From a virus (Duplodnaviria > Heunggongvirae > Uroviricota > Caudoviricetes), in IMG/VR virus record IMGVR_UViG_2917408641_000001: a stretch of 15,816 nucleotides of DNA. One strand, written 5' to 3'. The number at the start of each line of letters is the position of its first letter. Position 1 is the stretch's first letter. Positions 9,001-12,000 of this stretch are shown in pieces. Position numbers: made by a program.

Positions 9001-12000
9001 CCTGACGGGAAGGGATGCCAAAGAACTGGAACTGGCGGACCCGGTGAAGGCGCGCCCAGCCGATGGCGCGTTCCACGCTTTCTGCCATCGTCTTTCCTGA
9101 TTCGTCGTCGATGCGCGGTTTGCCTGTTTTCGGGTCGATGCCATCCACGGCGCGGCTGTCCAGGTTTTTTCCGATGTAGGTCGCGATGTAGCCGGTCGGC
9201 GTGCCTTTTGAGCCGTCGATATACTCCGCCTTAAAGCGAGGGGTGATATCGCTGCCCAGCTCGTGGCGGTCTTCCTGAATGGCAATATCGCGGACGTGGG
9301 ACACAATGGTGTCGATTTCATCAGGATGTGCAAAGACCAGCATATGCCAGTGCACGGTGCCGTCATGGTGAGGCTCCGCCGTGCGGATACCGTACCAGCG
9401 CAGGCCTTCGCGGTTCAGTTTTTTGCGGACTGCGGCAAAGAACGTGTTAACCAGGTAATCGCTGGAATCACGCATGGTGGCCCCGTTCCACTTCGGGTTC
9501 GGATGACCGTTATCCGTTGTGGCGTGGTACTTCGAAGGGGTGGTGACAGTCAGAAACACCGCTTTGTCACCGCGGGCTTCGGCCAGAAGTTCCAGCCCCT
9601 TTGTGGTGGCCATCATTTCTGCTTTACGGTGGACCGGGTTACTTACTCCCGCGTAATACACCGTCTCGAGATCAATCGTGAACCCGTCTTTATTTTCCAG
9701 CATGAAACTTTTCAGGAAATCGCGTGTTTTCTCGCGCTGTGCGCGAAACTCGCTTAACGCGTCCTGGCTCAGATAGGGCGATGTTTTTCTGGAAACCAGA
9801 CAGGCGGCGCGGAGTTGTTCTTCTCTCCACTCGCAACGTAACAGCCACAGTTTGCGTTTCCACCATTCCGCACAGGTCAGGCGAAGGATTGCGCCCGGCA
9901 GCAGCTCCGTGTCCGGTTCGTTCCTCCGGTCTTTATCTGTTGTCAGTGCGTCATAATGTGGAGGCATGGCGTGCAGGTGTAACGCCATGCGGGCCAGCAT
10001 CTGATACGCCTTCAGGGTTACATCCATGGTCAGCTCGCCATCGGTCGCGCCAAAGCCATCGCAGAGTTTTTCGAAGGTGCTGCTGAACATCGCCGCCGTC
10101 ATGGTGGCCAGCGTCTGTATCTGGTGCTTGTTAAGCTGCGGCAGGTAAAGCAAATCGTCCAGGCGTTCGCGTCCGGCAAGGGCGCGATAACCCGGTGTCA
10201 GCCAGCGGCTGTCGGTGCGGTCCAGACGTTCGAATATTTTGCGCAGGGTTCCGCGCGCGTAGCCCTCTGCTGGTCGACTCTTTTTGCCTTTCTGGCGGTC
10301 AGATTCCTGCTTCTTACGTAAAAAAGAGAGGCGGCGGCTCAGGGGTTCACGCAGATAAACAGGTAGTGCCTTTAGTGTGACAAATGCACGGGCCACCGGG
10401 TCTTTTTCTGTTACCCGGCGCTTACTGATGATGTTCTATGCCAGCTTTTCACGCTGTCCGGCTTCCTCAAGGGATGCCATGAGTTTTTTACCCATGGCGG
10501 ATTGTGCGAAAAAGGCTTCTTCCTTCGCTTCCTGTTCTTCCTGTGCCTTTTTGTCCGCCTCAAGGTAGTAACGGATGGCTCGTTGCAGGTCGGTTTCAGT
10601 TTCCTGCCTGCGTTCCGTAAATCTGGCCGGATCAATGGCTGGCCGTGGTTCATTCCAGCTCCATGCAAACTCACTCATGGCTGGTATCCCGTCACGCGCT
10701 GCCACTCCTGCGAGAAGAGGGCGGAAAGGCGGTTAAATTCAGCGGTGTATTCACTCAGCGAGGCACACCCGCCAGCAGTACGATGCGCCAGTATTGCCGC
10801 AAATACGGAGGCCGGGGAGTCGTAATACGCCAGCAGTGATTCTCCATGCGGTGTCAGGCAGTGCAACGCCAGTCCGTGTGGTGTGAAGTCCACGCGGTAG
10901 CAGTCGTCTACTGTGAAATAAAGGGTATCCGTATTCTCCGGTTTTGTGGTGCGTGCTCTGTTGTCACGACCACGAATGTAGAGATCAAATAATCCCTGGA
11001 GAACGGGAGCCAGACGGGTGTCCTGTGTGCGCACCCATCTTGTGAAGTCATGAGCGTCAATCATGCTGCAATTCTCTTTACTACAGATGTGCGAAGGCCT
11101 CCCGCCGCAAGGTGCAGGAAAGGCCCGGAACAGGAATTAATGGAGTTTGTTTTGCTGCTGGATGAGCTGTTGAAGCTCGTGCAGATCATCCGCCAGATAG
11201 CTGAAAACAGAGGCGGAATAAATGTTTGATAGTGCGTGGCTGCGCTCATGCAGCATATTGATGTGCATGATTTGCGCGACGCGTGATGCGCGGGAAAGTC
11301 TGCGGTTGATTTCAGTCTGGATGTGACGACGCTCCGCGATAGCGCGGTGCTGTTTGCGGTTTGCCATGGTGTGGCCCCTTGTGTAGTAAGTTGTGAAAAC
11401 TCACCATCCAGAGCTGCGAAACTGTGGGTGGCGAGACGTACGAGGTTCGCAGTACCGGCTACACAAGAACCCGGCCCGACCGAAATCGGCCCCGTACGCC
11501 CCGCCATAATTCTGACGCGAAAAAAACGTGGCAATACAGTACGCACAAAAAAACCGCTGGCGCGGTTGTGCGCTTGTGTAGTCAGCAGGCTGCGAAACCC
11601 GGCACCCGTTTTGTGAGGTGCAGCGGAAATGTAACCTGACTGATTGCGGCATGGCAAGCGGTTTTTTTGTGTGTGCATGTTCTGGTTTCTTAGTGGTTCA
11701 GAAAAAAATCAAAAACCTTGTCAATGCGTTGCAGCAGCTCTTGCTGTATTGCTTCCGGCGTTTCCGGTTCGCTTGGCGCCTCCAACGTCGCGCAGAAATC
11801 CTCGATTTCATGACGGAGCGTCAGGCGAATGGCGAGAGGTGTGGTTCTGGCGTGCTCCAGCTCATCCAGCAGCGCCAGCACAGCAGACGGCGAGAGCATT
11901 GCGCGAAACGCCAGTAATTTTTGAGGCGTTGCCATTCGTTGCAGGTCAGTCGCCAGTTCGCGTAATTCCTGGTGGTTGATGGCGCTCATGCTCTGGCTTC

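What the first reader, a model, noticed from the sequence alone, without database searches (positions are those of the whole stretch)
11368..11689. Long non-coding spacer with direct and inverted short repeats inside an otherwise tightly coupled operon
Most neighbouring early genes are separated by 4-bp overlaps or a few bases, yet here there is about 320 bp without a convincing ORF. It carries CTTGTGTAG twice direct and once inverted, GCTGCGAAAC twice, and small hairpins. This could be an internal promoter or operator array, an origin-like site, or a structured non-coding RNA.
Basis: seen in the sequence. Interest (0 to 1): 0.5.

Follow-up and report, generated by a model that had tools for sequence, protein, structure and literature searches.

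The report
RNA immunity switch in P2-like prophage

Summary
On the minus strand, Rfam places an isrK-type leader RNA at 11621-11547 (64 bits, cut-off 50) and a C4 antisense RNA at 11511-11424 (80 bits, cut-off 45). CUUGUGUAG sits in the C4 apical loop (a') and CUGCGAA in its internal bulge (b'). Their complements occur once in the leader (a1, b1) and once downstream (b2, a2), and a2 overlaps the Shine-Dalgarno sequence of a 76-aa homologue of the phage P4 epsilon anti-repressor. In 97 related P2-like loci the scaffold is nearly invariant. The sites occur as 12 a-types and 5 b-types, and all three copies always change together. P4, N15 and lambdoid phages have the same layout. A promoter-like site lies at the same relative position in P4, N15 and lambdoid leaders, and an intrinsic terminator ends the leader. 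A 205-aa Ash/eta-like ORF runs through the whole module and appears to be kept open. My verdict is a new member of a known kind: the P1 c4, P4 CI, N15 CA and Gifsy-1 IsrK class of RNA immunity switches, here inside the early replication operon of a P2-like prophage. It is not an operator array or an origin. Expression, processing and the anti-repressor activity are inferred, not shown.

The parts
11628..11657 (-). Internal sigma-70-type promoter: -35 TTGCCA at 11657-11652, an 18-nt spacer, -10 TACATT at 11633-11628. The predicted start is G11621.
   Evidence: Promoter scan. The hexamers are invariant or nearly so in 18 loci. P4, N15 and lambdoid leaders have -35/-10 hexamers at the same distance from the leader start. 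No transcript data.
11547..11621 (-). IsrK/seqA-type leader RNA, about 75 nt. It has hairpin 1, hairpin 2 carrying b1 in its loop, single-stranded a1, and an intrinsic terminator.
   Evidence: Rfam RF01394 at 64.1 bits (cut-off 50), E 5e-12. Fold. Sub-threshold c4-a1b1 match, 20.9 bits.
11589..11598 (-). b1 target site GUUUCGCAGC (core 11596-11590), complementary to b' of C4.
   Evidence: 7 pairs, 4 with changes on both sides, 100% paired in 18 loci.
11573..11581 (-). a1 target site CUACACAAG, complementary to the C4 loop a'.
   Evidence: 9 pairs, 7 with changes on both sides, 100% paired.
11547..11567 (-). Intrinsic terminator of the leader: AACCGC-GCCA-GCGGUU followed by a U run.
   Evidence: Terminator scan. 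Rfam isrK 3' hairpin. Nearly invariant in 18 loci.
11424..11511 (-). C4/CI-type antisense RNA. A 17-bp closing stem encloses two hairpins and an internal single-stranded bulge. The mature 5' end is predicted at U11506 by RNase P cleavage.
   Evidence: Rfam RF01695 at 80.2 bits (cut-off 45), E 1e-14. MFE -45.2 kcal/mol, z -4.1. Stem covariation, e.g. C-G/U-A 9:8. RNase P processing is inferred from P1 C4 (PMC11143913).
11459..11467 (-). a' recognition sequence CUUGUGUAG in the 12-nt apical loop of C4 hairpin 2.
11446..11452 (-). b' recognition sequence CUGCGAA in the single-stranded bulge of C4.
11413..11422 (-). b2 target site GUUUCGCAGC (core 11420-11414), downstream of C4.
   Evidence: 7 pairs with b', 4 with changes on both sides, 100% paired.
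11400..11435 (-). Alternative helix. The 3' strand of the C4 stem (11435-11427) pairs with 11409-11400 and places b2 in the loop.
   Evidence: Duplex -14.8 kcal/mol, against -7.3 +/- 2.3 for shuffles. The same helix with different sequences occurs in P4, N15, phiKO2 and lambdoid loci.
11365..11386 (-). a2 target site CUACACAAG (11386-11378), overlapping the Shine-Dalgarno AAGGGG (11380-11375), then the ATG at 11367-11365 of the first downstream gene.
   Evidence: 9 pairs with a', 6 with changes on both sides, 96.9% paired.
11137..11367 (-). 76-aa homologue of the P4 epsilon (E) anti-repressor ('derepression protein'); the gene under RNA control.
   Evidence: Pfam PF25738 at 32.7 bits (cut-off 27). 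BLASTP against P4 epsilon: 29% identity over 66 aa, E 4e-9.
11061..11678 (-). 205-aa Ash/eta-like ORF. Its ATG lies 12 nt after the upstream gene's stop. It reads through the promoter, leader, C4, a2 and the whole epsilon-like gene in another frame, and ends in an ATGA overlap with the next gene.
   Evidence: Open in 97 of 97 loci, with an ATGA end in 95. Recoding test 2.3%. Substitution test P about 0.009. P4 eta ORF matches Phage_ASH at 82 bits, the window ORF at 24.9 bits.
11654..11674 (-). A-rich stretch upstream of the -35, complementary (19/21) to the terminator's 3' arm plus U run (11561-11541). Role unexplained: UP-like element or anti-terminator.
   Evidence: I1. The MFE of 11692-11538 uses this pairing. 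No covariation is available.

Best explanation
The spacer is an RNA-based immunity (anti-repressor control) module of the C4/CI class, read on the minus strand.

Shown by sequence and comparison:
- An isrK/seqA-type leader RNA (11621-11547) ends in an intrinsic terminator.
- 35 nt downstream lies a C4-type antisense RNA (11511-11424).
- The C4 loop (a', CUUGUGUAG) and bulge (b', CUGCGAA) are complementary to one a/b site pair in the leader.
- They are also complementary to a second pair downstream, whose a-site overlaps the ribosome-binding site of a P4-epsilon-like anti-repressor gene.

Inferred mechanism:
1. A constitutive internal promoter fires in the lysogen.
2. Most transcripts stop at the leader terminator.
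3. Read-through transcripts yield C4, released by RNase P.
4. C4 pairs with b2/a2 and blocks translation of the epsilon-like gene. The untranslated RNA is then prone to premature termination, so this promoter does not express the downstream 129-aa gene or replication gene A.
5. The leader copy (a1/b1) masks C4 in cis, titrates it in trans, or serves as a C4-dependent termination signal. This sets the threshold of the switch.
6. When the early promoter Pe fires, ribosomes translating the eta/Ash-like ORF from upstream run over the terminator and the target sites, so early transcription reaches gene A. This is how eta works in P4.
7. The many a/b sequence types act as immunity specificities.
For: - Rfam gathering-level matches to C4 and isrK, adjacent and on the same strand.
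- The same pair at the same spacing in P4 itself, N15, phiKO2, four lambdoid phages and two other Xuanwuvirus phages.
- Site complementarity in every locus although the sequences differ.
- Formal counts: a1:a' has 7 of 9 pairs with changes on both sides, b1:b' 4 of 7, a':a2 6 of 9, b':b2 4 of 7. Between 97 and 100% of cells are paired. Structures slid by 1-3 columns pair in only about 40% of cells, and 0 of 500 shuffles reach the observed covariation score.
- 97 loci show 12 a-types and 5 b-types in 19 combinations, and the copies are always matched.
- The C4 fold has z -4.1.
- Promoter and terminator predictions fit the RNA ends, and the promoter position matches that in P4, N15 and lambdoid leaders.
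- The downstream gene is a P4 epsilon homologue.
- The prophage repressor is a P2 C homologue with the Thr67 equivalent conserved, and P4 E binds P2 C (PMC2995052).
- IsrK and STnc1160 are transcribed in lysogens of Gifsy-1 (PMC7067206).
- The eta-like ORF appears to be kept open, and the P4 eta ORF belongs to the same Pfam family.
Against: - There are no transcript, processing or binding data for this element. The promoter and terminator are consensus matches only.
- The isrK-like fold alone is not unusually stable (z -1.2).
- A three-copy DNA motif would show the same correlated changes. The distinction from a protein-binding site therefore rests on the covariance-model matches, the loop and bulge placement, the few G-U wobbles and homology to the tested systems.
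- The first controlled gene is not an icd/kil-type gene as in P1, P4 and N15.
- The Ash match of the long ORF is below Pfam's cut-off in this window.
- The anti-repressor activity of the 76-aa protein rests on distant homology (29% identity).
Confidence: 0.82

Rival explanations
1. The leader RNA is the activator, as in the Gifsy-1 IsrK model. The full-length transcript folds so that leader a1/b1 pair in cis with a'/b' and the ribosome site is closed. The short terminated leader RNA acts in trans to open it and switch on the anti-repressor, so C4 is not the main repressor. This rival concerns the logic of the switch, not the identity of the parts.
For: The MFE of the 267-nt transcript pairs the leader with the a'/b' region in cis. 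This matches 'structure A' of PMC4825925. In that system IsrK in trans raised anrP translation more than 100-fold.
Against: In P1, P4 and N15 the processed C4/CI/CA RNA is the trans-acting repressor (PMC8198154, PMC3632133; P4 and N15 details from my own knowledge). The a2 site overlaps the SD directly, which is what an antisense block needs. The two models are compatible if the leader acts as a sponge for C4.
Confidence: 0.3
2. The region is simply a protein-coding gene (an Ash/eta family protein), and the repeats are incidental features of its coding sequence.
For: A 205-aa ORF spans the region in all 97 loci. It gives a weak Phage_ASH match. PGAP annotates 'ash family protein' here in some genomes.
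Against: The correlated three-site changes keep base pairing, not amino acids. The covariance models score far above threshold. The predicted protein is low-complexity and overlaps a real gene out of frame. In P4 the homologous ORF matters through being translated, and the RNA is the immunity factor (own knowledge: Forti et al. 1999). Coding and RNA function are not exclusive, and I think both apply.
Confidence: 0.04
3. The repeats are DNA operators bound by the adjacent winged-helix (MarR-like) or another early protein, forming an internal operator array.
For: There are three copies of each motif, in direct and inverted orientation. A MarR-type gene lies two genes upstream. Correlated change of all copies would also be expected for operators.
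Against: The same motifs with the same geometry occur in P4, N15 and lambdoid phages whose annotated flanking genes are different. The inverted copies fall in the loop and bulge of a conserved RNA fold. The non-identical positions include G-U-compatible transitions on the transcribed strand. The a2 copy overlaps an SD rather than a promoter.
Confidence: 0.03
4. The region is a replication origin or another cis-acting DNA site.
For: It is a non-coding-looking gap upstream of the replication gene, with repeats and A/T runs.
Against: There are no iterons or AT-rich unwinding region, and GC is 55%. P2-type phages nick inside gene A. The content is fully accounted for by RNA genes.
Confidence: 0.01

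Closest known systems
Satellite phage P4 immunity region (PLE - seqA leader - CI RNA - seqC - kil/eta - epsilon)
   Same: The same two Rfam families are on one strand in P4 (isrK 8692-8615, C4 8507-8420). Promoter hexamers lie at the same distance from the leader. The loop and bulge sequences match one site pair upstream and one downstream, and the downstream a-site abuts an SD. A long ORF reads through the RNAs in the same frame and belongs to Pfam Phage_ASH. An epsilon-family gene lies downstream.
   Different: The host element is a P2-like helper-type phage (gpA, Cox, C), not a satellite. The leader-to-C4 spacer is 35 nt against 107 nt. There is no kil/icd gene, so the epsilon-like gene is the first controlled gene. 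The eta-like ORF overlaps the epsilon-like gene out of frame instead of ending at its start. The module sits in the middle of the early operon.
Phage P1/P7 immI operon (c4 - icd - ant1/2)
   Same: Both have a C4-type antisense RNA whose a' and b' elements pair with a2/b2 at the ribosome site of the first gene, with an a1/b1 copy upstream. Both control an anti-repressor, and sequence differences in the sites give hetero-immunity (PMC8198154, PMC12197685; details from my own knowledge of Citron and Schuster 1990).
   Different: P1 has icd and the large Ant protein, and its leader matches the c4-a1b1 model rather than isrK. Here c4-a1b1 scores only 20.9 bits. The controlled protein here is an unrelated small epsilon-type protein.
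Phage N15 / phiKO2 anti-immunity region (CA RNA - icd - antA - antB)
   Same: isrK and C4 matches have the same spacing (24-25 nt), an annotated leader terminator and anti-repressor genes downstream. One b-type (UUGAGAA) is shared with some P2-like loci.
   Different: The anti-repressors differ (AntA/AntB), and an icd gene comes first. N15 has no long eta-like ORF. These are linear plasmid prophages.
Salmonella Gifsy-1 isrK - orf45 (STnc1160) - anrP locus, and the lambdoid copies
   Same: An IsrK leader with a terminator whose read-through feeds a processed RNA of about 80 nt and an anti-repressor (PMC4825925). The lambdoid loci examined here show isrK + C4 + a nested Rha/Ant gene.
   Different: In lambdoid phages the anti-repressor is Rha/Ant-type and in frame with the long ORF. 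The published model makes IsrK an activator and does not treat the downstream RNA as the repressor.
Coliphage 186 Tum (functional analogue)
   Same: It is an anti-repressor encoded by a P2-like phage that can switch its own prophage to lytic growth (PMC7067206).
   Different: Tum is LexA-controlled and unrelated in sequence. No LexA box lies near this module, and control here is by RNA.

Membership tests
C4 antisense RNA (Rfam RF01695; P1 c4 / P4 CI / N15 CA) | Covariance-model score at or above the curated gathering score | tested here: met
   80.2 bits against 45, full length 1-87, E 1e-14.
C4 antisense RNA (Rfam RF01695; P1 c4 / P4 CI / N15 CA) | Long closing stem enclosing two hairpins, supported by covariation | tested here: met
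   Of 27 internal pairs, 99.7-100% are paired. The closing stem has 2 pairs with changes on both sides (e.g. CG:9, UA:8). MFE z -4.1.
C4 antisense RNA (Rfam RF01695; P1 c4 / P4 CI / N15 CA) | Two exposed elements (a', b') complementary to a site pair upstream and a site pair downstream on the same transcript | tested here: met
   9/9 and 7/7 pairs in the window. Compensatory changes across 18 and 97 loci.
C4 antisense RNA (Rfam RF01695; P1 c4 / P4 CI / N15 CA) | Downstream target covers the ribosome-binding site of the first gene of an anti-repressor operon | tested here: met
   a2 (11386-11378) overlaps the SD at 11380-11375, with the ATG at 11367. The gene belongs to the P4 epsilon family.
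C4 antisense RNA (Rfam RF01695; P1 c4 / P4 CI / N15 CA) | Released from a precursor by RNase P and acting in trans as a repressor | not testable with these tools
   Needs northern blots or RACE in an rnpA(ts) host, and trans-repression assays.
IsrK / P4 seqA-type leader RNA (Rfam RF01394) | Covariance-model score at or above the gathering score | tested here: met
   64.1 bits against 50, positions 1-77.
IsrK / P4 seqA-type leader RNA (Rfam RF01394) | Starts just after a promoter and ends in an intrinsic terminator, followed by a C4-type RNA | tested here: met
   Promoter-like and terminator-like sites fit both ends. C4 lies 35 nt downstream. These are consensus matches only.
IsrK / P4 seqA-type leader RNA (Rfam RF01394) | Hfq binding and trans activity | not testable with these tools
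   No binding data.
P4-type immunity operon | Long eta-type ORF (Pfam Phage_ASH) reading through the leader and CI RNA from upstream of the internal promoter | tested here: inconclusive
   The ORF is present and kept open. The Phage_ASH score is 24.9 bits against a cut-off of 26 in the window, 27.1 in P88 and 82.2 in P4.
P4-type immunity operon | First controlled gene is kil (Icd-like) | tested here: not met
   The P4 eta ORF matches NCBIfam phage_ICD_like at 73 bits. The window ORF has no match, and the first gene is epsilon-like.
P4-type immunity operon | The element is a P4-like satellite (alpha primase, sid/delta/psu) | tested here: not met
   The window encodes gpA (Phage_GPA, 432 bits), Cox and a P2 C-type repressor. 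It is 99.4% identical to Xuanwuvirus P884B11.
P1 immI operon | icd and ant1/2 genes downstream of c4 | tested here: not met
   The downstream genes are epsilon-like, a 129-aa gene of unknown function (phrog_3237) and gpA.
P4 epsilon (E) anti-repressor family (Pfam PF25738) | Profile score above the cut-off and pairwise similarity to P4 epsilon | tested here: met
   32.7 bits against 27. BLASTP E 4e-9, 29% identity.
P4 epsilon (E) anti-repressor family (Pfam PF25738) | Binds a P2 C-type repressor and de-represses the prophage | not testable with these tools
   Only circumstantial: the window's repressor is a P2 C homologue with the Thr67 equivalent conserved (PMC2995052).

The most novel reading that the evidence does not exclude
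P2-like helper-type phages carry their own version of the satellite P4 switch, with three features not described in the papers I could search. (i) The antisense RNA directly gates an epsilon-type anti-repressor, and with it the phage's own replication gene A. (ii) Specificity is a two-part code (at least 12 a-types and 5-6 b-types that reassort), which would create many RNA-level immunity groups among otherwise near-identical prophages. (iii) An eta-like ORF is kept open across the RNA genes and across the whole epsilon-like gene in a second frame, so that translation coming from the early promoter overrides the RNA lock. If true, the helper and its satellite share, and may compete through, the same RNA immunity and derepression hardware.
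Probability: 0.4. Interest if true: 0.55.

Novelty: new member of a known kind. Interest (0 to 1): 0.35.

Why it matters
- It turns an apparent gap in a tightly packed phage operon into a fully annotated regulatory unit. It also shows that genome pipelines mislabel this unit: relatives annotate it as nothing, as a 'hypothetical protein' or as an 'ash family protein'.
- The complete module is common. It is present in 1154 of 5426 complete E. coli genomes.
- The natural set of matched a/b variants on an invariant scaffold is a ready-made series for studying RNA-RNA recognition specificity.

Tried and rejected
- tRNA/tmRNA scan: nothing found.
- LexA-box search: no exact CTGT-N8-ACAG in the window, and none of the seven one-mismatch hits lies near the module. 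The count is no more than chance, so SOS control as for 186 Tum is not supported.
- PDB sequence search with the 76-aa protein: no match.
- Other ORFs in the spacer (83 aa on the minus strand; 97 and 71 aa on the plus strand): no Pfam, PHROG or NCBIfam match.
- Genome-contig scan with the single protein: only 3 close loci. Diversity came instead from E. coli genomes and IMG/VR.
- The 21-nt long-range inverted repeat (11654-74 / 11541-61) as an anti-terminator: thermodynamically favoured. However, both arms are invariant, so there is no covariation test. It pairs with the 3' arm of the terminator, which is kinetically unfavourable, and it is absent from the P4, N15 and lambdoid versions. Left as unexplained.
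- Alignment-based pair count for the C4-3'-strand/downstream helix across distant phages: a one-column register shift in the MAFFT alignment made it unusable. It was replaced by per-locus duplex calculations.
- G-U against A-C counting, to separate RNA pairing from a DNA motif: too few mismatches to be decisive.
- The primary P4 papers (Sabbattini 1995, Forti 1999) are not in the held library. Statements about P4 eta/kil and N15 CA RNA rest on my own knowledge.
- P2 itself has no isrK or C4 match in its early region, so the module is not a general P2 feature.
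Full report
**Observation**

CTTGTGTAG lies at 11378 and 11573 with its reverse complement at 11459, and GCTGCGAAAC lies at 11413 and 11589. A third, inverted partial copy of the second repeat (TTCGCAG, 11446) was missed. A 9-mer present three times arose in 14 of 2000 dinucleotide shuffles. The 322-bp gap between the 99-aa gene (stop at 11690) and the 76-aa gene (ATG at 11367) contrasts with the 4-bp overlaps upstream. However, a 205-aa ORF (11678-11061) crosses the whole gap.

**Context**

All the relevant genes are on the minus strand.
- The window is the left end of a P2-like prophage and is 99.4% identical to Xuanwuvirus P884B11 over 11100-12000.
- It encodes an integrase, a P2 C-type repressor (37% identical to P2 C, E 1e-22), Cox, DUF4761, a MarR-like protein and an Ead/Ea22-like protein.
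- The spacer follows, then a 76-aa 'derepression protein', a 129-aa protein and gpA.

**What the spacer contains**

Rfam at gathering thresholds gives two adjacent minus-strand matches:
- isrK (RF01394) at 11621-11547, 64.1 bits against a cut-off of 50.
- C4 antisense RNA (RF01695) at 11511-11424, 80.2 bits against a cut-off of 45.

C4 folds as the model predicts (-45.2 kcal/mol, z -4.1). A promoter-like site (TTGCCA-N18-TACATT) ends 6 nt before the leader's first base, and a terminator (AACCGC-GCCA-GCGGUU plus a U run) forms its 3' end.

The second repeat is the complement (b1, b2) of the C4 bulge (b', CUGCGAA). a2 overlaps the Shine-Dalgarno AAGGGG, 7 nt before the ATG of the 76-aa gene.

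**Relatives**

The isrK + C4 pair is found on one strand in all ten comparison loci:
- two other Xuanwuvirus phages;
- four lambdoid phages;
- phiKO2 and PhiR46_1;
- N15;
- P4 itself, where the two matches are the PLE leader (seqA) and the CI RNA. Barquist et al. already stated this equivalence (PMC3632133).

In each locus the loop and bulge are complementary to one site pair in the leader and one downstream. The downstream a-site abuts an SD, although the actual sequences differ. Promoter hexamers sit at the same distance from the leader in the window, P4, N15 and lambdoid phages.

**Covariation**

I aligned 18 P2-like loci. The scaffold is nearly invariant and variation is concentrated in the six sites.

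| Interaction | Pairs | Pairs with changes on both sides | Cells paired |
|---|---|---|---|
| a1:a' | 9 | 7 | 100% |
| b1:b' | 7 | 4 | 100% |
| a':a2 | 9 | 6 | 96.9% |
| b':b2 | 7 | 4 | 100% |

Structures slid by 1-3 columns pair in only about 40% of cells, and no shuffle of 500 reaches the observed covariation score.

With 80 further IMG/VR loci, 97 loci (66 distinct sequences) show 12 a-types and 5 b-types in 19 combinations. Every locus has a1 9/9, a2 at least 8/9 and b1/b2 7/7. A sixth b-type appeared in a later scan. The a and b types reassort, so specificity looks two-part. The complete module is present in 1154 of 5426 complete E. coli genomes. P2 itself lacks it.

**The controlled gene**

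The 76-aa protein matches Pfam 'Derepression' (32.7 bits against 27). It aligns with P4 epsilon at 29% identity (E 4e-9). P4 E is an anti-repressor that binds P2 C, and Thr67 of C is critical for that interaction (PMC2995052). The window's repressor keeps that Thr in the aligned motif. It is therefore reasonable, but not shown, that this protein inactivates a P2 C-type repressor, either its own or that of a co-resident prophage. No LexA box is nearby.

**The long ORF**

In all 97 loci an ORF of at least 205 aa has these properties:
- It starts 0-12 nt after the stop of whatever gene lies upstream.
- It reads through the promoter, leader, C4, a2 and the entire epsilon-like gene in another frame.
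- It ends in an ATGA overlap with the next gene in 95 of the 97 loci.

Indels in three loci keep it open. Synonymous recodings of the epsilon-like gene leave this frame open in only 2.3% of trials. Among 118 natural variants about 4.6 stop-creating changes were expected, yet no natural sequence has a stop (P about 0.009).

The P4 ORF in the same frame relative to C4 matches Pfam Phage_ASH at 82 bits plus an Icd-like tail. The lambdoid ORF matches Phage_ASH at 55 bits plus Rha. The window's ORF scores 24.9 bits, just under the cut-off. From my own knowledge (Forti et al. 1999), translation of P4 eta from the upstream promoter prevents immunity-specific termination. I infer the same override here for transcripts from Pe. 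The predicted protein looks non-globular, which fits a role for the act of translation rather than for the product.

**Other structural points**
- The 267-nt transcript from the internal promoter folds with the leader paired in cis to a'/b'. This matches the inactive 'structure A' of the Gifsy-1 IsrK study (PMC4825925).
- The 3' strand of the C4 stem can instead pair with 11409-11400, placing b2 in a loop. This helix recurs with different sequences in P4, N15, phiKO2 and lambdoid loci.
- A 21-nt complementarity between 11674-11654 and the terminator's 3' arm is thermodynamically favoured in transcripts coming from upstream. It cannot be tested by covariation.

**Mechanism and rivals**

Best supported: a C4/CI-type antisense lock on the ribosome site of an anti-repressor gene. 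By polarity it would also lock expression of the downstream replication gene from the internal promoter. A leader copy of the target sites tunes it, and a translated ORF bypasses it during lytic growth.

The role of a1/b1 cannot be decided in silico. It could be cis masking, a decoy as in Gifsy-1, or C4-dependent termination as in P4 and N15. The readings as a plain coding gene, an operator array or an origin are each poorly supported (see the rivals).

**Novelty**

Both RNA families are curated, and the IsrK-C4 system is described for P4, P1/P7, N15 and lambdoid prophages (PMC3632133, PMC4825925, PMC2864571). I found no paper in the held library describing it in P2-like phages. This is a new member of a known kind, with three features worth a note: it gates an epsilon homologue directly, its specificity types combine, and the long ORF overprints the epsilon-like gene.

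Noticed in passing
window 11061-11678 (-), overlapping 11137-11367 (-): The eta/Ash-like ORF overlaps the entire epsilon-like gene in a second frame and ends in an ATGA overlap with the next gene. It is open in 97 of 97 relatives, which is less often expected by chance (2.3% of synonymous recodings; P about 0.009 from natural variants). This is possible dual coding or translation-only function.
   Followed up: partly
window 11654-11674 and 11541-11561: A 21-nt, 90% complementary long-range inverted repeat. On RNA read from upstream, the A-rich arm can replace the terminator hairpin in the MFE structure (z -4.6). It is specific to the P2-like version and invariant, so it cannot be tested by covariation.
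   Followed up: partly
window about 11672-11690; L003, L018, L022, L023 (SPFH gene) and L002, L024 (DNA-binding protein gene): The gene just upstream of the RNA module differs among relatives. Similarity resumes at about 11672, so the module's left edge is a mosaic junction. In each case the long ORF's ATG follows the upstream stop by 0-12 nt.
   Followed up: partly
window 6471-7749 (-): A ParM/StbA actin-like segregation gene and a Plasmid_stab_B (ParR-like) gene lie just downstream of gpA. This is a plasmid-partition pair inside an integrated P2-like prophage.
   Followed up: no
window 3888-4283 (+) and 5045-6195 (+): IS1 transposase and IS3-family orfA/orfB transposase genes are inserted in the region beyond the replication genes. 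Next to them is a DUF4116 protein (1786-3198).
   Followed up: no
L011 (N15) versus L014, L017, L019-L021: The b' type UUGAGAA and its targets are shared between phage N15 and some P2-like prophages. This hints at exchange of specificity cassettes, or cross-talk, between unrelated phage groups.
   Followed up: no
L014 (NZ_JBQPOM010000071.1): A locus about 89% identical in the epsilon-like protein, with the full module, sits in an assembly labelled Vagococcus sp. This is an unlikely host for an enterobacterial P2-like prophage and may be contamination.
   Followed up: no
L001 4319-4579, L024 2992-3285, L003 3329-3517, L004-L006 anti-repressor CDS: Public annotations treat the RNA genes inconsistently: as an 'ash family protein' pseudogene, as a plus-strand hypothetical protein, or as an N-terminal extension of about 200 codons on Rha/anti-repressor genes.
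   Followed up: partly
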